A stretch of 34,571 nt of DNA from a virus (taxonomy: Duplodnaviria; Heunggongvirae; Uroviricota; Caudoviricetes): the IMG/VR virus record IMGVR_UViG_2713896785_000021; one strand, given 5' to 3'. The translations under genes and the position numbers were made by a program. Below, in pieces: positions 3,097 to 28,049 of the stretch. The notes beneath the pieces were generated by a model, which was not told where the DNA came from, ran no database searches, and worked only from the letters and a program-made list of their open reading frames with translations. Numbering within the stretch: the first letter of the stretch is position 1; the number at the start of each line of letters is the position of its first letter.

Positions 3097-3575
3097 TATC
3101 CCGCCCCCGTCATACCCGTGAATCTGGTCGCCATACTGCCAGCTTTACCGATGAGCGATTCCGCCTGTTTACCGATATCGCCATAAAGCGCGGCCAGTGA
3201 TTCATCAACGCGGGTGAGCGACAGCGTAAAATCAATTTTCCGGGGTGTGCCGTCTGCAAAGAAAATACTCCCTGTTTCACTCACCCTGCTGATGACATAC
3301 ATGCCGTAAATCATGCCGGTGCCATCCAGCAACGGCCACGCCCGGCCTTCCTCTGCCATCAGCCTGAGCGTGGTCATCGTCAGCTTTCCGCCGGTCAGTT
3401 CGGGATAAAGCACACCGGCAAGCGTGATGTTTTCCTCGCCAACGCCGAGAAACTGGTAGGCATCCCGTTTACCGATACGGGAATTTGACGGCCAGCGATA
3501 ATCTGATTCACGCTGCATGGTCTGGTGTGGCAGCGTCTGGCGCATAAAAACAAACATACCTAACGCGAGCATCAT
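3096..3575 (-). CDS. U: Tail protein gpU, 159 aa
   Basis: Position and length match P2 gpU. Confidence 0.85.
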   Translation of the reverse strand: MMLALGMFVFMRQTLPHQTMQRESDYRWPSNSRIGKRDAYQFLGVGEENITLAGVLYPELTGGKLTMTTLRLMAEEGRAWPLLDGTGMIYGMYVISRVSETGSIFFADGTPRKIDFTLSLTRVDESLAALYGDIGKQAESLIGKAGSMATRFTGMTGAG

Positions 3576-8564: not shown

Positions 8565-9158
8565 TCAATTATGTAAATCTTTTGTTTTATGTTCTTTAGC
8601 GTGTTGTGATAATAAATAGCTATAGCGTTTAAGCAAAATATTAGAAAGATTAAGCTCATTCATGAAGTGTTCTTCTAATAAGTAACCATCAATATCAACT
8701 TTAATATCATTACCACTTTTCATCTTCTGTAACGTAGATTTTACACGCTCCAGCAGGATGCTTTGCTCATGGTAATAGTCCATAAGAAGAGTAACATCCT
8801 CTTTATCAAGCTTACTTAATTCGCTGAAGTATGATTTAAACACTTTATCAGTCTGGTTTAATGCAATCTGTAAGCGAGGTCCCCCTGATGATTTGACATT
8901 AATGGCAAAAGGCTCGCCAACAAAATGCTCCGAATTTTCGTCAAAGCCAATATTTCTCGTTTTATCAAGAAAGGTGAGAGCGCGATGGTTATTAGCGATT
9001 TCATATGCAAACATTGTTCTGATACTGTCTCTCTCAGCCTCCATGCTTATATCATCACGATGATTTGTATAAAATATATTTCCAGCAAAGAGAACCATAG
9101 CAAGAATCACTGAACTTGCCTCCCAGTTAATATTTTTTAATCGTCGCTTAGTAAACAT
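8565..9158 (-). CDS. Hypothetical AT-rich membrane-anchored protein, 197 aa, one N-terminal TM helix, cargo at the P2 Z/fun position
   Basis: Clean ORF with AAGGTG Shine-Dalgarno; strongly AT-rich codon usage against GC-rich tail genes; hydrophobic segment SSVILAMVLFAGNIFYT near the N-terminus; no domain I recognise. Confidence 0.6.
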   Translation of the reverse strand: MFTKRRLKNINWEASSVILAMVLFAGNIFYTNHRDDISMEAERDSIRTMFAYEIANNHRALTFLDKTRNIGFDENSEHFVGEPFAINVKSSGGPRLQIALNQTDKVFKSYFSELSKLDKEDVTLLMDYYHEQSILLERVKSTLQKMKSGNDIKVDIDGYLLEEHFMNELNLSNILLKRYSYLLSQHAKEHKTKDLHN

Positions 9159-13551: not shown

Positions 13552-13899
13552 TCAACTCACAGGGATGGTTAACGAAAGTGGCTGGCCGGTGTCGTTGTGC
13601 TGGCCGGTTAACGTGACCGTCATTCGCCCGTCAAAACTGCGCGCCGTGGTGACAGATGACAGCGTGACGCGGGGTTCCCATTTCAGCACCGCCATGTAAC
13701 AGGCGACCTTAATCTGCAACTCAAGCGCCGGGGTCTGCGGCTGGTCAATCATTGACGCCAGCAACGAGCCGTAATCACGACGCATCACCCGTGAGCCGAC
13801 CGGTGTGCGCAGGATATCGCCGATACTCTGGCTGATATGCTCAAGGTCAGTGACCGTCAGGCCATCACTGCGATTCATTCCGAGATAACGCGCTGTCAT
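13552..13899 (-). CDS. W: Baseplate wedge protein gpW, 115 aa
   Basis: Length and position match P2 gpW. Confidence 0.88.
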   Translation of the reverse strand: MTARYLGMNRSDGLTVTDLEHISQSIGDILRTPVGSRVMRRDYGSLLASMIDQPQTPALELQIKVACYMAVLKWEPRVTLSSVTTARSFDGRMTVTLTGQHNDTGQPLSLTIPVS

Positions 13900-14531
13900 A
13901 GAGGGCTCCCGGTTGTGCCGCCGCTGTCGCCGGGGTGTTTATGGGTATGCAGTACCTTACCGTTTGATGAGAGTTCACCGCCGGTGTGTTCAATGTTGCC
14001 GTGCATCGTCCCGCCCTTCTGCACTTCCAGCGTGCCGGTAATCAGCCTGTTGGTGCAGACCACCTCCGGTGTGTCCAGGGTGACGCGGGTTGATGCTTTC
14101 ACCATGACCACCGGCACCGTGGCAGTAACAGAATCAGAAGCCGTCACGCTGGCCGTTTTAATTCCGCTTACCGTGAGTGCACTGGTTTCGGGTTCATACT
14201 CAATCACCGCCCCGTCAGGGAAACGGATATGCAGGGCATCCGCCGACGCAGACGGCGCGGGGTTATCGCCGGAATAAATCCCCGGCAGAACGAACGCCGT
14301 GTCGAGTTCACCGCCCACAGCCAGAATCAGCACCTGCTCCCCCACGGAAGGTGCCCACCATGTGCGCGAACGTCCGGCACGATGGGTCAGCCACTGAAGC
14401 CAGTCAGTGCACATGCCACCGGTCTGCACACGGCAGCGACCGGCTTTAAGGTTGGTTTCGACGACAAGGCCGGTACGAATCATGTTGCGCAGTGCGCGCG
14501 CGAGTTCCTGAATATTTGCGAGAGTGTTCAT
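13896..14531 (-). CDS. V: Baseplate spike / assembly protein gpV, 211 aa
   Basis: Start placed at the internal Met (MNTLANIQELARALR...) that gives the canonical 211 aa; the track ORF extends 6 codons further upstream to 14549. Confidence 0.85.
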   Translation of the reverse strand: MNTLANIQELARALRNMIRTGLVVETNLKAGRCRVQTGGMCTDWLQWLTHRAGRSRTWWAPSVGEQVLILAVGGELDTAFVLPGIYSGDNPAPSASADALHIRFPDGAVIEYEPETSALTVSGIKTASVTASDSVTATVPVVMVKASTRVTLDTPEVVCTNRLITGTLEVQKGGTMHGNIEHTGGELSSNGKVLHTHKHPGDSGGTTGSPL

Positions 14532-14614
14532 GCGTGTGAGATTGCACAATATATAAAAGTTATGCTATCTGGATTCATTTGTAGAACGACCATACAACAT
14601 TCGAGGAGAGCGTA

Positions 14615-15400
14615 ATGTTCAGTGATAATGTGACTAATGCGTGGTGGTTTATCTCTTTGTATCTATTTTTATTAATAGCATTAACATTTATTACCTTTGG
14701 TAAAAGTAATCTTATGAGGTTTATTGCACATCATTTCAATTTTGAGTATTCAGACAGAAAGTTAAAAATGCTCGACAAAAAATGGCGCGACATTCAACTA
14801 TTTAAAATAATTAACGGAATCAATGTATCAGGCATCGAAGATGTGAGAATGATACAGCAGGGGCTGATTGATGGAAAACTAAAAACATCGTATTTTTTTC
14901 TTACTCGCTTCTGGGGTGACATAACAAAACCACCACACATAATTAAAACAATAATTGTAATTCTGTCCAGCATTATTTATATTCTCTTCGCATGTTATAT
15001 ACACAACAAACAATCCGTTATAGTAAGAGATGCCATAGGCATACCATATAAAAATATGATGTACTATGTTTATAGTGACAAAGTTCTTTTATCCTTCAAC
15101 AATAAAACAGTTGAATTCAATAAAACTTATAGCCTTGCCGATTGCAAGAGGCTACGAAACCTATTTATAAAAGACACACTTCCTGAGATCGCCTGCAATA
15201 AGCTCTTACAGCTAAACGAGGAGGACTCGGAATGGTTAAGTCAGGAGATTAAAGATAATAACAGCCAAAAAAAAGCATTATTAATAATATCCCTCATCTA
15301 TTTCATTTCAGGTCTGGTTATATTCCTGTCATATACAAAATTCCTTTACGCCAATAAGAAGGTTGTAGAATACAAAGCATCAAATAAAAATCACTCATAA
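14615..15400 (+). CDS. Hypothetical AT-rich integral membrane protein, 261 aa, about 3 TM helices, antisense cargo between V and S (orf30 position)
   Basis: Strong GAGGAGAG Shine-Dalgarno before the ATG; very AT-rich (Asn/Lys/Ile-rich); hydrophobic helices at about aa 9-28, 109-129 and 232-250; opposite strand to all flanking late genes; no domain I recognise. Confidence 0.6.
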   Translation: MFSDNVTNAWWFISLYLFLLIALTFITFGKSNLMRFIAHHFNFEYSDRKLKMLDKKWRDIQLFKIINGINVSGIEDVRMIQQGLIDGKLKTSYFFLTRFWGDITKPPHIIKTIIVILSSIIYILFACYIHNKQSVIVRDAIGIPYKNMMYYVYSDKVLLSFNNKTVEFNKTYSLADCKRLRNLFIKDTLPEIACNKLLQLNEEDSEWLSQEIKDNNSQKKALLIISLIYFISGLVIFLSYTKFLYANKKVVEYKASNKNHS

Positions 15401-15407
15401 ACCTCTA

Positions 15408-15441
15408 AACATTGAGCGACCAGCATGGCCGCTCAATGTTT
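15408..15441. terminator. Stem-loop (AAACATTGAGCG ... CGCTCAATGTTT) between the convergent cargo gene and gpS; possible bidirectional terminator
   Basis: 12-bp perfect inverted repeat seen in sequence; no clear U-tract, so termination function is uncertain. Confidence 0.35.
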
Positions 15442-15471
15442 AATTGCGCATCAGCCTCTGCCTGGATAAAA

Positions 15472-15924
15472 CTAACGCTCAAGGTGAGCCAGGATAATCT
15501 CTTCAATCATCTGCACATCCTCACTGGTAAAGCCGAGCAGAGGACGCGCCGGATAATCAATTTTCTTACCGTCTTTCCGGTTTTCTTCCGACAGACCGAA
15601 CTGATGCACGCTGGCGATTTTCGGTGACTTCCCGCCGTAAAACTCCATTGATGCCTGTTCCGGGCTGGCGCGGATATGCAAAAAACGACTGGTAATAAGT
15701 TTCGCAAACATTTTTCGCTTAACGCGACCGGTCTTTTTTCTGGCGCTCTGCTGCTGGCGTGGCACGTAGGGTGTGCCGTCCGGGGCTTTCTGTGCCATCA
15801 CCCGACGCTGCTGACTCTGCCGCAGACGTTTCGCCAGTTCGGCACTCAGTCGTCGACGCCCTGACGGTGACAGCGACTCAATCAGTCCGGTCAGCCGGTC
15901 TTCAAAACGCTTAAACTCATTCAT
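15472..15924 (-). CDS. S: Tail completion protein gpS, 150 aa
   Basis: Length and position match P2 gpS. Confidence 0.88.
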   Translation of the reverse strand: MNEFKRFEDRLTGLIESLSPSGRRRLSAELAKRLRQSQQRRVMAQKAPDGTPYVPRQQQSARKKTGRVKRKMFAKLITSRFLHIRASPEQASMEFYGGKSPKIASVHQFGLSEENRKDGKKIDYPARPLLGFTSEDVQMIEEIILAHLER

Positions 15925-24994: not shown

Positions 24995-26863
24995 TTATCG
25001 CCATTCTTGAGAATAACTTGCGTCAGACGATCTCGGACCGGGTACAGCAGGGTGAATTGAAATTCTTACGGGTATATTAAAAGCAGCACCAAACGCTATT
25101 GCATCTCCTCTTGGAAGCCCAGAAATCTGCCGAATCATTAACTCATTTCCACTTTCCATCGCATACCGTAAAGTCTGCAAATCACGCTCATTTGTCAGGC
25201 GCAACGAAAACCAATTTGCACACATTGCTAATACTGTTGATGAAAGCTCTGATGGTCGTTGTGTGCTCACAATAAGTGAACATTTAAATTTACGCCCTTC
25301 TTTAGCAAGTCTTTCATAAGCTTTAATTTGAGCATCAACTTCAGAATAAGGATCTCTTAAATAGTGGTGCGCCTCTTCAAGAAGTAACACGGTTGGAAAA
25401 GCTTTGTTTTGCCCCCTAAGAAAGAGAACTTCAGCAAACATTTCTAATAATGCACTTAACAGCATTGGAGCATGATCTTGTGAAAGATGCTTAAAATTAA
25501 CAATATGAATATTCCAGTCATTCTCCTCTCCCTTTTCTTTACCAAAGAAATAATCAACTTCCTGTCTCATAGCTAATTCCCAATGTTTGCCATCACTTAA
25601 TAATTCACCACCTCCATTTAAATCAACAACATACTTGAATCTAGAATCCTCTGATAACTGTTGAATTATCTTAATCAATGGCAGAACATTACCATAGCTA
25701 AAAGCATCTCGTTTACTAGATCCAGCTTTTCGCGAATCCGCCGCCACGCAACCAAACTCCGCAACCAAGTTAGCAATACTTTTAAACGGCGGCCATTTAT
25801 TTGCCTTACACAGCATCCCTCTTCTTAAGAAACTCAACCACGCAGATAAAAGCTCTTGCCCTTCATCTCTACAATCATCAAAAATATTAAATACGCCCCC
25901 TACTTCATCCTTAAGAAAGAATGAATCATCGGAAAAATGAACACTATTTATAGCATTAAGCGCATTTCTTAATGCAGGTAATTGTGTCTTATCACTAGGG
26001 CGTAGTAATTTTATCAACCCAGCAAATCCCAATGCTTGATAAGGTATTTTTCTATAGTAGTAATGTTCATTCTCAGAAAATATATCTCCTTTCTGTAGAG
26101 GTGGTTTTGGAAACTCTCCTTTTGGTAACTCACCTAAAATAGTATGTTTAACATTAGCAACACCTTCAAAAGCCTGAGAATACTCGCCATTAATATCAAA
26201 AATTACTATTCTTGCATTAGGGTACTGTTCTGAAATGCGGCGTGTAAGTAAAGCATTAAAATTAGATTTACCATATCCAGTACTGCCCAAAACAGCCATA
26301 TGCCTGGTTAGTAATTTATCAATGCTAGCTAAAATTTTAACTGATTTAGTCCTCGAATCTATTCCTAACTCAATTGCTTTATCCAGATCATTTTTATCAA
26401 TACTATATACGATATTTAAAAAATCAGATGTTAACGGGACAGCGGATGCTCCCAGAGCAGGTAACCTCCAGTCTTCCGAAACAAACACACATCCATCTAT
26501 ATCTCGTCTAATAAAACCTATTGCATAGGCTATTATTTGCCTTAACGGCATATCTGCTATATCTGATGTACCTATTTTTGCCTTATGTGCTTTATCAGCC
26601 TCGACAAATGCCATATCTGTAACTCGAGCCACAACCAGAATATTTCCGGCATCAAAACCGATCAAATCTCCAGGCTGAGTAACAGAACTAACACCATCCC
26701 TATGAGAGGCGAGCCTACCTTGCAATCCTTCATGAAGATTTATCCTTATTTTTTCGCCCTCCAGACCAACGACATACCCAATAGCAGATAATTCAGATAG
26801 TTTAAAATGCGACATTCCCTTCCCCTTTAGACAATTTAGAAATAGCTTCAACCAAGTCATCAA
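24995..26863 (-). CDS. herA: HerA-like (FtsK/HerA superfamily) ATPase, about 606-622 aa, partner of the SIR2 protein
   Basis: Walker A (GSTGYGKSN), Walker B (LLLEEAHHY) and TQRP motifs; AT-rich. An alternative start at 26815 (MSHFKLSEL..., preceded by GGGGAAGGGA) overlaps the SIR2 stop by 14 nt. Confidence 0.8.
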   Translation of the reverse strand: MMTWLKLFLNCLKGKGMSHFKLSELSAIGYVVGLEGEKIRINLHEGLQGRLASHRDGVSSVTQPGDLIGFDAGNILVVARVTDMAFVEADKAHKAKIGTSDIADMPLRQIIAYAIGFIRRDIDGCVFVSEDWRLPALGASAVPLTSDFLNIVYSIDKNDLDKAIELGIDSRTKSVKILASIDKLLTRHMAVLGSTGYGKSNFNALLTRRISEQYPNARIVIFDINGEYSQAFEGVANVKHTILGELPKGEFPKPPLQKGDIFSENEHYYYRKIPYQALGFAGLIKLLRPSDKTQLPALRNALNAINSVHFSDDSFFLKDEVGGVFNIFDDCRDEGQELLSAWLSFLRRGMLCKANKWPPFKSIANLVAEFGCVAADSRKAGSSKRDAFSYGNVLPLIKIIQQLSEDSRFKYVVDLNGGGELLSDGKHWELAMRQEVDYFFGKEKGEENDWNIHIVNFKHLSQDHAPMLLSALLEMFAEVLFLRGQNKAFPTVLLLEEAHHYLRDPYSEVDAQIKAYERLAKEGRKFKCSLIVSTQRPSELSSTVLAMCANWFSLRLTNERDLQTLRYAMESGNELMIRQISGLPRGDAIAFGAAFNIPVRISIHPAVPGPRSSDASYSQEWR

Positions 26864-28049
26864 CAGTATTTTCTCTTGGGAACAACACCGGATAAGGAAG
26901 ATGTTTCACAAAACTATCAAAGTAAGCATCTGCCCCCCCACCCACGATAGTCACTTGATTGAATTGCATATTTTTTAAAGCATCAATTGCCTTTTCACCT
27001 TCAGAAGCAACGCCTCTACTAACTTTATCTAAAGCATTCTCCAGATCAGGGTAATAAATAACAACATGAAATGACGGATTTAACAAAGCACCAAAAACAA
27101 TTCTGTTTATATGATAATCACCAAACCCAAACCCATTAATAAACAAAGCGGTTTGAGGTTTTGACAAAAACTCGCCAAAACGTCTAAACATTTCACCGTA
27201 AACAAAACCAATTGTATGGCTATATTTATTAGCCCCCGGATAAATTAAATGTTGACCATAGTAAAAACCGTCACCATTAATAATATTTTTAATGTAATTA
27301 TCATATGCCTGAGATGCACTTATCTCATTAACTATTAAAAAATCATCCTGATACCATGTAAGAGAGCCATGCAATTTATATAGATAAGCGTGATAATGAC
27401 CAAATCTAGCCTCCCCTTTTGCATTGACATTTCTAAATGCCAAATCAAAATTTTGAGGATAAAATTGTCTTGTATGCAATCCTGAAAAACCATTAAATAG
27501 CTGAATTCCTAAATCTTCAGCTGCCCACTCTAATGCCAAATCATAGTTGGTAGTAAAAAGTGCCGGAGCCGATTGTCCCGGCTGCCTATTTGAAATCAAC
27601 TTTGAAATTAATTCTTTATGAGACTTAAACTGTTTTTTCTTCCCTTGATTTTTACAACCAAACTCTTCTCCAGTTAACAATGCAGCCTTTGTTACTTGTT
27701 TATACAAAGCACTTAATATTAAACTAATTTCTTTTTGTTCGTCTTCATTACGTCTTGTTTTGGCCACAGACAAGAATTTAGTTACTTCATCAATTAGAAG
27801 CTCAACATTAACTATATCTTGTTCAGATTCAGTTTTGTCAACCAATAAGTATTTTTCTAGTAACAAATTCAATAGATCAGGATGTTCATATTTAAAAAAC
27901 TGCCATACCTGCTTCATAGTTTGGCCGCCACATCCGACCGATGCTCCCGCGCCTAAAAGAACCCCTACATTATCCAACTGACATAACGAATAAAGATGAG
28001 AATAAAAATCATCTTCAGATATTATCTTACCACCTTGATAAATAACCAT
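26802..28049 (-). CDS. SIR2-family (SIR2_2-like) NAD+-dependent effector protein, 415 aa
   Basis: Gly-rich Rossmann motif GVLLGAGASVGCG, then TTNYD and HGS motifs typical of defence-associated SIR2 domains; AT-rich; AGGGA Shine-Dalgarno. Confidence 0.8.
   Translation of the reverse strand: MVIYQGGKIISEDDFYSHLYSLCQLDNVGVLLGAGASVGCGGQTMKQVWQFFKYEHPDLLNLLLEKYLLVDKTESEQDIVNVELLIDEVTKFLSVAKTRRNEDEQKEISLILSALYKQVTKAALLTGEEFGCKNQGKKKQFKSHKELISKLISNRQPGQSAPALFTTNYDLALEWAAEDLGIQLFNGFSGLHTRQFYPQNFDLAFRNVNAKGEARFGHYHAYLYKLHGSLTWYQDDFLIVNEISASQAYDNYIKNIINGDGFYYGQHLIYPGANKYSHTIGFVYGEMFRRFGEFLSKPQTALFINGFGFGDYHINRIVFGALLNPSFHVVIYYPDLENALDKVSRGVASEGEKAIDALKNMQFNQVTIVGGGADAYFDSFVKHLPYPVLFPRENTVDDLVEAISKLSKGEGNVAF

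What the first reader, a model, noticed from the sequence alone, without database searches (positions are those of the whole stretch)
14615..15400. Antisense AT-rich three-helix membrane protein inserted between baseplate gene V and tail-completion gene S
A 261-aa ORF with a strong Shine-Dalgarno (GAGGAGAG) lies on the strand opposite to every surrounding late gene, at the position of the dispensable orf30 in P2. It is markedly AT-rich, predicts about three TM helices separated by Lys/Asn-rich soluble segments, and is followed by a 12-bp perfect inverted repeat. I recognise no known domain. Orientation and composition indicate independently expressed horizontally acquired cargo. It is a candidate membrane-acting abortive-infection or superinfection-exclusion protein.
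Basis: partly seen in the sequence, partly recalled or inferred. Interest (0 to 1): 0.7.

Follow-up and report, generated by a model that had tools for sequence, protein, structure and literature searches.

The report
Phage P2 orf30 membrane-protein gene
This is the long-known, dispensable orf30 gene of phage P2: an AT-rich accessory gene for a three-helix inner-membrane protein whose function is still unknown and which sits in a slot where related prophages carry anti-phage genes.

Summary
A 261-aa ORF (14615..15400, +) with a GAGGAGAG ribosome-binding site lies antisense between baseplate gene V and tail gene S. Its GC is 0.32 against about 0.58 in the flanks. It has three hydrophobic helices and is followed by a stable hairpin.

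It is not new cargo at the orf30 position. It is orf30 itself: same 786-bp length and place, 85% protein identity to P2 Orf30 (annotated 'nonessential'). It occurs in 464 of 5,426 complete E. coli genomes.

New here:
- The gene belongs to PHROG 2407, a family that diverges fast (23-36% identity while gpV stays at 63-83%) and links remotely to Pfam DUF6216.
- All 15 members whose context could be read lie in P2-like prophages of Enterobacterales; 14 are in the V-S slot, all antisense to V and S.
- All 28 aligned members keep three TM helices, a conserved cytoplasmic loop and two cysteines in the predicted periplasmic loop.
- dN/dS of 0.33-0.61 shows a real gene under purifying selection.
- In other species the slot is empty or holds unrelated AT-rich cargo, including known defence genes.

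The function is untested. My best guess (0.4) is a lysogen-expressed protein that excludes a narrow range of phages at the envelope. Recalled P2 and E. coli B biology argues against broad or self-directed exclusion. The gene is already known; interest is modest.

The parts
14615..15400 (+). orf30 orthologue: CDS for a 261-aa, three-TM membrane protein (PHROG 2407)
   Evidence: ORF. 85% aa identity over 261/261 residues to P2 Orf30. Same position and length as AF063097 9439..10224. PHROG 2407 at E 3e-143. dN/dS 0.33-0.61 among 7 intact variants, apart from one near-identical pair (5 differences) at 1.02.
14603..14610 (+). Shine-Dalgarno sequence GAGGAGAG, 4 nt before the ATG
   Evidence: Read directly from the sequence. 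Nearly conserved in P2, which has AAGGAGAG.
14532..14614 (.). 83-bp V-orf30 intergenic region. It holds the late promoter pV (- strand) and whatever promoter drives orf30. The A+T block TATATAAA at 14550-14557 is the only plausible -10 for orf30 and coincides with the pV -10 on the other strand.
   Evidence: P2 annotation transferred by alignment. The consensus scan finds no sigma-70 site upstream of the ATG. My looser scan finds only GTGAGA-19-TATGCT, 8 of 12 matches. The promoter assignment is inference.
14573..14600 (-). Ogr (late activator) binding site of pV, 15-42 nt upstream of the orf30 ATG
   Evidence: P2 feature 'activator binding site; activation of pV promoter' at L001 1624-1651 maps to these window coordinates. 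A related half-site, close to ACTACACAAC, is present in all 11 V-orf30 intergenic regions examined.
14642..14698 (+). TM1 (aa 10-28). Its sequence is nearly free to vary (dN/dS about 1.2) but stays hydrophobic.
   Evidence: Hydropathy. Regional dN/dS.
14699..14938 (+). Loop 1 (aa 29-108), predicted cytoplasmic and helical. It is the most conserved part of the family, with Q61, G68, N70, V71, D76 and G87.
   Evidence: Net charge +6 under the positive-inside rule. Lowest column entropy, 2.0. Alignment A3. Helices in the AF2 model.
14939..14998 (+). TM2 (aa 109-128), with a polar face (K111, S118, S119, Y122)
   Evidence: Hydropathy 2.49. Hydrophobic moment 1.23.
14999..15274 (+). Loop 2 (aa 129-220), predicted periplasmic: four beta-strands plus helices. 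Cys177 (15143-15145) and Cys194 (15194-15196) probably form a disulfide.
   Evidence: AF2 secondary structure. C194 is invariant, and a second Cys sits at 177 (or 174) in all 28 members. The topology and the disulfide are inferred.
15275..15334 (+). TM3 (aa 221-240), part of one long helix (aa 202-260), followed by a Lys-rich cytoplasmic tail (aa 241-261)
   Evidence: Hydropathy 2.58 and tail net charge +4. AF2 helix 202-260. N247 and K254 are conserved.
15406..15442 (.). Hairpin between the convergent genes orf30 and S. It is the putative rho-independent terminator of the P2 O operon and probably also stops orf30 transcription.
   Evidence: Inverted repeat. Stability. P2 annotation 'putative rho-independent terminator for O operon' at the homologous place. 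The pattern scan did not call it. The Rfam hit is far below its gathering score and spurious.
13896..14531 (-). Gene V (baseplate spike), left boundary of the slot
   Evidence: 96% aa identity to P2 gpV. P2 annotation.
15472..15924 (-). Gene S (tail completion), right boundary of the slot
   Evidence: 98% aa identity to P2 gpS. P2 annotation.

Best explanation
The ORF is the orf30 gene of a P2-type prophage. It is a single-gene accessory cassette ('moron') in the gap between the end of the O late operon and the V late promoter.

It encodes an inner-membrane protein with its N-terminus outside and C-terminus inside. The parts are three TM helices, a conserved 80-residue helical cytoplasmic domain, a 90-residue periplasmic beta/alpha domain probably held by a Cys177-Cys194 disulfide, and a basic cytoplasmic tail.

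I think it is most likely made at a low level by the prophage. I think it acts non-enzymatically at the envelope to exclude a narrow set of heterologous phages, or other agents that must cross the inner membrane. It would do this by binding, through its periplasmic or cytoplasmic domain, a phage or host component needed for genome entry. This is how P22 SieA, HK97 gp15 and T4 Imm work.

Shown here: the gene's identity, that it is under coding selection, the family and its fixed location, and the nature of the slot. Inferred: topology, disulfide, expression in the lysogen, and the exclusion function itself.
For: Identity with P2 orf30.

A real, selected gene:
- all 7 phage variants have intact 786-bp ORFs;
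- dN/dS is 0.33-0.61 overall, apart from one near-identical pair (5 differences) at 1.02;
- dN/dS is 0.27-0.35 in the two soluble loops.

Membrane protein with a conserved architecture: three TM peaks and a charge distribution that fits the positive-inside rule. All 28 family members keep three TM helices and two Cys in loop 2. The AF2 model has pLDDT 84.8 and pTM 0.75.

Family tied to one phage lineage and one place: all 28 aligned members match PHROG 2407. All 15 members with readable context lie in P2-like prophages, 14 of them in the V-S slot and antisense to V and S.

Fast divergence of the kind seen in conflict genes: 23-36% identity where gpV keeps 63-83%.

The slot behaves as a defence and accessory hotspot:
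- it is empty in 22 of 63 scorable loci;
- it is occupied by AT-rich cargo in 41, falling into about 33 unrelated families;
- PADLOC matches in that cargo include RT_V, PDC-S06, PDC-S31, PDC-S33, NsnA, mad3 and AriA;
- Pfam matches in that cargo include RelA_SpoT, GmrSD_N and Peptidase_C14.

Close functional analogue: P22 SieA is a three-TM inner-membrane protein (PMC10883804).
- It has three sequence types less than 30% identical and a cytoplasmic conserved motif.
- Its AT-rich gene (GC 0.34) sits antisense next to the genes of the DNA-delivery proteins.
Against: There is no experimental phenotype for orf30 in any paper I could search. It is listed as 'unknown' or 'nonessential'.

There is no homology to any PADLOC model, to annotated exclusion PHROGs or to SieA.

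No convincing promoter was found. The uniform low GC makes H-NS silencing likely.

From my own knowledge, not tested here:
- P4, which uses P2 tails, as well as P2 vir1 and lambda Spi- phages, plate on P2 lysogens. Cognate P2-type injection and lambda entry are therefore not blocked.
- E. coli B is the classical permissive host for T1-T7, yet REL606 has a copy 99.6% identical at the DNA level.

Rousset et al. (PMC9122126) could reproduce the lambda and LF82_P8 protection given by a P2_AC1 lysogen with the cloned TO-region system alone. P2_AC1 carries orf30.
Confidence: 0.4

Rival explanations
1. Abortive-infection effector. Orf30 sits idle in the inner membrane. On sensing an infection cue through its conserved cytoplasmic loop, it oligomerises into a pore, depolarises the cell and aborts the infection.
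Confidence: 0.17
2. A lysogenic-conversion factor unrelated to phages. The membrane protein changes host envelope physiology, for example by modulating a transporter or sensor kinase, conferring stress tolerance, or giving immunity to a colicin or tailocin. That benefits the lysogen.
For: It has moron architecture and is kept intact in the decayed P2 remnant of E. coli B REL606, where S is truncated. It is present in 464 of 5,426 complete E. coli genomes. The slot also holds non-defence cargo such as a fimbrial protein and an ORF6N protein. No phage phenotype was found in decades of P2 genetics (own knowledge).
Against: All members with readable context lie in P2-like prophages, rather than spreading among other mobile elements or chromosomes as host-adaptive genes often do. 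The very fast divergence fits conflict better than housekeeping modulation. No domain points to a host target.
Confidence: 0.2
3. An accessory function in the phage's own cycle. For example, it fine-tunes lysis, DNA injection or establishment of lysogeny, or protects progeny from adsorbing to lysing cells. Its expression would be coupled to the neighbouring Ogr-dependent V promoter.
For: Its position is fixed next to pV, and the Ogr box lies 15-42 nt from its ATG. The family is confined to P2-like phages.
Against: It is annotated nonessential in P2. The slot is empty in 22 of 63 scorable P2-like prophage loci, and PhiR44_1 also lacks the insert. In other loci unrelated genes fill the slot. It is antisense to both late operons, so late transcription would oppose it. 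In other family members the ATG lies 40-100 nt beyond the Ogr box with separate promoter-like sites.
Confidence: 0.13
4. An H-NS-silenced passenger with no current function, kept only because it lies in a tolerated gap.
For: GC is 0.32. No clear promoter was found. No phenotype is known.
Against: dN/dS is below 1 (0.27-0.35) in the soluble loops. All 7 phage copies have intact ORFs of identical length, and the listed E. coli copies are annotated as intact proteins, not pseudogenes. The architecture and the Cys pair are conserved down to about 20% identity.
Confidence: 0.1

Closest known systems
Bacteriophage P2 Orf30 (AAD03281.1; PHROG 2407)
   Same: Same gene. It is 786 bp and 261 aa, with 85% aa identity without gaps. 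It sits in the same place between V and S, in the same antisense orientation, with the same SD region and the same downstream hairpin.
   Different: 40 amino-acid differences, concentrated in the N-terminus and TM1. Closer variants (98-100%) exist in other E. coli prophages.
Pfam DUF6216 (PF19723), uncharacterised proteobacterial membrane proteins
   Same: Divergent members of the orf30 family align to the DUF6216 profile end to end. P0029 from Sodalis scores 28.9 bits against a cutoff of 27.3, covering profile positions 10-265 of 270. Several other members score sub-threshold. P0029 lies in the same V-S slot.
   Different: The window protein itself gives no DUF6216 hit at E <= 1. The link is remote and carries no functional information.
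P22 SieA superinfection-exclusion protein (PMC10883804)
   Same: Works-like candidate. It is predicted to have three TM helices and is shown to be in the inner membrane. It acts as a single gene and is confined to one phage lineage. Its sequence types are less than 30% identical, and its most conserved motif is on the cytoplasmic side. The gene is AT-rich (GC 0.34) and antisense next to late genes for the DNA-delivery machinery.
   Different: No detectable homology: hhalign probability 0.3%. SieA is 164 aa and lacks the large loops. SieA blocks its own phage type, whereas P2 lysogens accept P2-tailed virions (own knowledge).
P2 lysogenic-conversion genes old, tin and fun(Z)
   Same: AT-rich, dispensable, horizontally acquired genes in the three classical variable loci of P2-like phages: the TO region, the Z region and orf30 (PMC3091744).
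   Different: Those three have defined anti-phage phenotypes, against lambda, T-even phages and T5. orf30 has none reported. Recent hotspot studies deal with the TO and Z/fun loci, not specifically with the V-S slot.
CorA/Mrs2/ZntB metal-ion channels
   Different: Not significant by Foldseek. There is no GMN motif. The TM count and order differ. The corresponding domain of Orf30 is predicted periplasmic with a disulfide, whereas the CorA domain is cytoplasmic.

Membership tests
P2 Orf30 / PHROG 2407 | Full-length sequence homology to P2 Orf30 | tested here: met
   BLASTP gives 221/261 identities with no gaps, E 5e-168. PHROG 2407 matches at E 3e-143 over positions 1-261 of 261.
P2 Orf30 / PHROG 2407 | Located between genes V and S of a P2-like phage, antisense to them | tested here: met
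   The same holds for 14 of 15 family members with readable context.
P2 Orf30 / PHROG 2407 | Dispensable for lytic growth and lysogeny | not testable with these tools
   Taken from the P2 record note 'nonessential'. Consistent with empty slots in other P2-like genomes, including the phage PhiR44_1.
Pfam DUF6216 (PF19723) | Score above the Pfam gathering threshold (27.3 bits) | tested here: not met
   No DUF6216 hit for the window protein at E <= 1. Only the distant relative P0029 passes, at 28.9 bits. The relation is remote and at family level only.
P22 SieA-type superinfection exclusion proteins | Sequence or profile homology to SieA | tested here: not met
   hhalign of alignment A3 against P22 SieA gives probability 0.3%, E 0.2, with only a TM stretch aligned.
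P22 SieA-type superinfection exclusion proteins | Inner-membrane protein with about three TM helices | tested here: met
   Prediction only: three hydropathy peaks and three long helices in the AF2 model. Localisation was not measured.
P22 SieA-type superinfection exclusion proteins | Expressed from the prophage and blocks DNA injection of superinfecting phage | not testable with these tools
   No expression or infection data were found.
Known anti-phage defence systems (PADLOC-DB v2.0.0) | Match to any defence-protein model | tested here: not met
   0 families at E <= 1.
CorA/MIT channel superfamily | Significant fold match plus the GMN signature after the pore-lining TM helix and two C-terminal TM helices | tested here: not met
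Moron (independent accessory transcription unit in a prophage) | Own promoter and terminator, atypical composition, absent from close relatives | tested here: inconclusive
   Atypical composition and presence/absence are met. A hairpin is present, but the pattern scan did not call it a terminator. No convincing sigma-70 promoter was found.

The most novel reading that the evidence does not exclude
PHROG 2407 (P2 Orf30 and its relatives) is a previously unrecognised family of single-protein, inner-membrane anti-phage factors that is private to P2-like prophages. Together with the RT, RelA/SpoT-like, GmrSD-like and PDC genes found in the same place, it would mark the V-S gap as a third true defence hotspot of P2-like phages. 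One possible target is the membrane-penetration step of other contractile-tailed phages or tailocins.
Probability: 0.35. Interest if true: 0.55.

Novelty: already known. Interest (0 to 1): 0.3.

Why it matters
orf30 is one of the last P2 genes without a function, and about a quarter of E. coli P2-like prophages carry it: 482 orf30 places against 1,810 gene V places. A function for it would complete the picture of what P2-like prophages give their hosts.

It would also add a membrane-level, single-gene mechanism to a defence catalogue dominated by cytoplasmic nucleases and NADases. The V-S gap would then deserve mining like the two established P2 hotspots.

The present analysis turns a vague 'hypothetical protein' into testable statements:
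- a predicted topology;
- a probable disulfide;
- a conserved cytoplasmic motif;
- a defined family with a fixed genomic address.

As it stands, the finding re-identifies a known gene and is of modest interest.

Tried and rejected
1. Domain searches. Pfam, NCBIfam and PADLOC searches of the protein gave only a sub-threshold TM-segment hit to DUF6535 and nothing else.

2. Fold searches with a good model (pLDDT 84.8).
   - BFVD found nothing.
   - Foldseek against the PDB found nothing significant. The top hits were claudin/TARP-like at E 0.2-0.3 and TM-scores below 0.21.
   - The afdb50 library was unavailable.

3. Word-indexed protein searches found only 5 to 7 close clusters. The exhaustive HMM search was needed to reveal the family.

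4. The search for related loci with the family alignment failed because no stretch was conserved enough.

5. tblastn of divergent members against phage and plasmid records found nothing. The divergent E. coli variant P0042 is absent from complete E. coli genomes.

6. The Rfam scan of the region found only a spurious hairpin match far below threshold.

7. Literature.
   - No paper gives orf30 a function.
   - A September 2026 bioRxiv preprint on H-NS silencing of immunity mentions DUF6216 once but could not be opened.
   - Searches for '8xMP' and for WP_000490543 were uninformative.

8. Rejected readings.
   - Structural virion protein: it is antisense, dispensable, a membrane protein, and absent from many relatives.
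   - Holin or lysis protein: it lies outside the lysis cassette and is nonessential.
   - Non-coding artefact: dN/dS is below 1 and the architecture is conserved.
   - Homotypic superinfection exclusion of P2 itself: P4 and P2 vir plate on P2 lysogens (own knowledge).
Full report
**Observation**

The window is a P2-type prophage. The ORF at 14615..15400 (+) encodes 261 aa and is the only large ORF on the + strand between 1933 and 21738. GAGGAGAG lies 4 nt before the ATG.

GC is 0.322 in the ORF (GC3 0.355), against 0.57-0.61 in the neighbouring 400-nt windows. Hydropathy gives three clear TM segments at about residues 10-28, 109-128 and 221-240. The protein is rich in Ile, Leu, Lys and Asn.

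The ORF is followed by an inverted repeat at 15406-15442. Its arms are 17 nt and include 12 perfect pairs. It folds at -21.6 kcal/mol on the + strand and -26.8 on the - strand, z about -5.

**Identity**

Megablast of 14450-15550 finds 20 phage records that cover the whole stretch. These include Peduovirus P24A7b (99.5%) and bacteriophage P2 itself (92.7%).

In the P2 record the homologous ORF is 'orf30, nonessential'. It is 786 bp, lies between V and S on the opposite strand, has the Ogr binding site of the V promoter just upstream, and has the 'putative rho-independent terminator for O operon' just downstream. The proteins are 85% identical over 261 residues without a gap.

The finding is therefore orf30 itself, not something inserted in its place. 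[quoted passage not shown] It is also listed as one of three loci of P2-like phages where horizontally acquired genes accumulate (PMC3091744).

The gene is common. It occurs in 464 of 5,426 complete E. coli genomes (482 places, all chromosomal). Gene V occurs at 1,810 places in 1,581 genomes. About 27% of E. coli V-S slots therefore hold it.

E. coli B REL606 has an intact copy, 99.6% identical at the DNA level, in its decayed P2 remnant. There, S is truncated and joined to a portal fragment.

**Is it a real gene?**

Seven variants (this window, P2 and five other phages) all have intact 786-bp ORFs. Pairwise dN/dS is 0.33-0.61, apart from one near-identical pair (P2 and P2_AC1, five differences) at 1.02. 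By region it is:
- 0.27-0.35 in the two soluble loops;
- 0.57 in TM2;
- 0.79 in TM3 plus the C-terminal tail;
- about 1.2 in TM1, which changes sequence freely but stays hydrophobic.

This is a protein under purifying selection, strongest outside the membrane.

**The family**

Word-indexed searches see only five close clusters among 5.8 billion proteins. An exhaustive profile search of 1.84 billion representatives finds 44, most of them 250-270 aa.

In a 28-sequence alignment (A3) the members are 17-39% identical to the window protein. All have three TM helices. Conservation is highest in loop 1, at Q61, G68 (invariant), N70, V71, D76 and G87 (invariant). C194 and I212 are invariant, and N247 and K254 are nearly so. 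Every member has exactly two cysteines in loop 2, at position 194 and at 177 or 174.

All 28 match PHROG 2407, 'unknown function'. Several divergent members align end to end with Pfam DUF6216, and one (P0029, Sodalis) passes its gathering score. The family is thus a remote branch of an uncharacterised Pfam family. The window protein itself gives no DUF6216 hit.

Every member that carries a species name comes from Enterobacterales and is called 'hypothetical protein'.

**Genomic address**

Wherever context could be read, the gene lies in a P2-like prophage. It lies between V and S, on the strand opposite to both, in the following:
- the window and P2;
- E. coli L003;
- Yersinia L085-87;
- Pectobacterium L088/89;
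- Cronobacter L090;
- Sodalis L091;
- L099;
- five species-representative genomes, L011, L040, L061, L072 and L078.

In L098 it is V-proximal and antisense, and the contig ends before any recognisable S gene.

The one exception is a pair of metagenome contigs, L100 and L101. There the gene lies beside a stretch similar to the window's 1666-1884 (probably ogr, by position) and fragments matching the window's putative integrase ORF. This is a decayed P2-like element, but a different place in it.

In four loci (L011, L040, L088, L090) extra genes share the slot, so the gene normally acts alone.

Family members are 23-36% identical to the window protein, where gpV is 63-83% identical. All have GC 0.30-0.35 beside V genes of 0.54-0.63.

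**The slot**

I scored 63 of 80 gene V loci from one genome per species. The other 17 had an S gene too diverged to place.
- The V-S distance is 68-85 bp in 22 loci.
- It is 0.8-3.1 kb of GC 0.32-0.48 DNA in 41 loci.
- The large ORFs in these inserts fall into about 33 unrelated clusters. The orf30 family is the largest, with 5 members.

The other cargo includes matches to these PADLOC models: RT_V (E 7e-156), PDC-S06, PDC-S31, PDC-S33, NsnA, mad3 and AriA. It also matches these Pfam families: RelA_SpoT, GmrSD_N, Peptidase_C14, DUF4062, AAA_21, Ion_trans_2 and the membrane family 8xMP. A fimbrial protein and an ORF6N protein are present too.

The gap is therefore an accessory hotspot rich in defence genes. 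Defence-hotspot papers deal with the TO and Z/fun loci, or lump everything 'within the tail genes'.

**Structure and topology**

With the 28-sequence alignment, AlphaFold2 gives pLDDT 84.8 and pTM 0.75. The elements are:
- a helix at 5-40 that includes TM1;
- helices at 48-67, 74-86 and 91-94;
- TM2 within the helix at 109-134;
- four strands at 141-173;
- helices at 174-180 and 189-198;
- one long helix at 202-260 that contains TM3.

Charge distribution is: N-terminus -1, loop 1 +6, loop 2 +2, tail +4. Together with the universal Cys pair in loop 2, this supports an N-out, C-in topology. Loop 1 and the tail would be cytoplasmic, and loop 2 periplasmic and disulfide-bonded.

**Regulation**

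The 83-bp V-orf30 spacer contains the V late promoter. The P2 Ogr site maps to 14573-14600, 15-42 nt from the orf30 ATG. A related half-site, close to ACTACACAAC, is present in all eleven spacers compared.

No sigma-70-like site is found upstream of orf30 at normal stringency. The only A+T block that could serve as a -10 (14550-14557) coincides with the -10 of pV on the other strand.

A reasonable but untested model is weak constitutive transcription in the lysogen, displaced when Ogr activates pV. Other family members have 40-100 nt between the box and their ATG, with separate promoter-like sites.

The hairpin at 15406-15442 lies between the convergent genes orf30 and S and would serve both. 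Empty-slot phages have a different, GC-rich hairpin there.

**Function**

Nothing is known experimentally. The evidence favours a conflict-related accessory protein acting at the inner membrane:
- it sits in a defence-rich hotspot;
- it is a single gene;
- it diverges fast;
- it has a conserved architecture with both periplasmic and cytoplasmic domains.

The closest analogue in behaviour is P22 SieA. SieA is a three-TM inner-membrane protein and has three sequence types less than 30% identical. Its conserved motif is cytoplasmic, and its AT-rich gene lies antisense beside the ejection-protein genes (PMC10883804). There is no homology between the two.

Important counter-evidence comes from established knowledge that I did not test. 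P4, which uses P2 tails, together with P2 vir and lambda Spi- phages, plates on P2 lysogens. E. coli B, which carries this gene, is the classical host for T1-T7.

Separately, the cloned TO-region system alone reproduced the lambda and LF82_P8 protection given by the P2_AC1 lysogen (PMC9122126), and P2_AC1 carries orf30.

Any exclusion activity must therefore be narrow, heterotypic or normally silenced. I give 0.4 to envelope-level exclusion, 0.17 to a pore-forming abortive-infection effector, 0.2 to a non-phage host-envelope function, 0.13 to a role in the phage's own cycle and 0.1 to no current function.

**Verdict**

The object is an already known gene (P2 orf30, PHROG 2407) whose function remains open.

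The added value here is fivefold:
- the gene's identification;
- the definition of its family and the remote DUF6216 link;
- the fixed address of that family;
- a topology and disulfide model;
- evidence that the V-S gap is a defence-type hotspot.

Interest is 0.3.

Noticed in passing
window 24995-28049 (- strand): The TO variable region, between the ORFs I take to be portal gene Q and replication gene A, is an AT-rich island (GC 0.33-0.40). It encodes a SIR2-HerA defence pair: SIR2 at 26802-28049 (PADLOC E 3e-188) and HerA at 24995-26863 (E 7e-272).
   Followed up: partly
window 8565-9158 (- strand): A third AT-rich island (GC about 0.36), at what I take to be the Z/fun position by P2 gene order, holds a 197-aa ORF with no PADLOC or Pfam match. 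It is another uncharacterised cargo gene.
   Followed up: partly
L005-L084 (gene V loci from 80 genomes), region upstream of position 3501: The V-S gap of P2-like prophages across Enterobacterales is empty (68-85 bp) in 22 loci. In 41 it is filled with 0.8-3.1 kb of AT-rich DNA from about 33 unrelated gene families. Many of these match defence models, such as RT_V, PDC-S06/S31/S33, NsnA, a RelA_SpoT toxin-like protein, GmrSD_N and a caspase-like protein.
   Followed up: partly
L010 2734-3399 (-) and L014 2718-3383 (-): A different membrane protein (221 aa, four hydrophobic segments, Pfam 8xMP 'octameric membrane protein', E 1e-40) occupies the same V-proximal antisense position in two genomes. 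In L010 a second membrane ORF of 266 aa is also present.
   Followed up: no
L102 (E. coli B REL606, NC_012967.1 2108119-2113904): In the defective P2-like prophage of E. coli B, orf30 (ECB_RS10570) is intact. The adjacent S gene is truncated and abuts a portal-gene fragment, so the accessory gene has outlived the structural genes next to it.
   Followed up: no
L100 247-1767 and L101 (metagenome contigs): One divergent subgroup of the family (P0016, with its first loop-2 Cys shifted to position 174) lies outside the V-S slot. It sits beside a stretch similar to the window's 1666-1884 (probably ogr) and fragments matching the window's putative integrase ORF, next to a GNAT acetyltransferase.
   Followed up: partly
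window 14532-14614, compared with L002 1583-1648: Phages with and without orf30 share no sequence between the V start codon and the S stop codon except the Ogr half-site. The V core promoter and the O-operon terminator hairpin therefore differ between the two kinds of phage and travel with the cassette.
   Followed up: partly
literature (bioRxiv 10.64898/2026.09.05.749240): A September 2026 preprint, 'H-NS silences antiviral immunity through 3D chromatin compaction', mentions DUF6216 once. It could not be opened, so whether it concerns this gene family is unknown.
   Followed up: no
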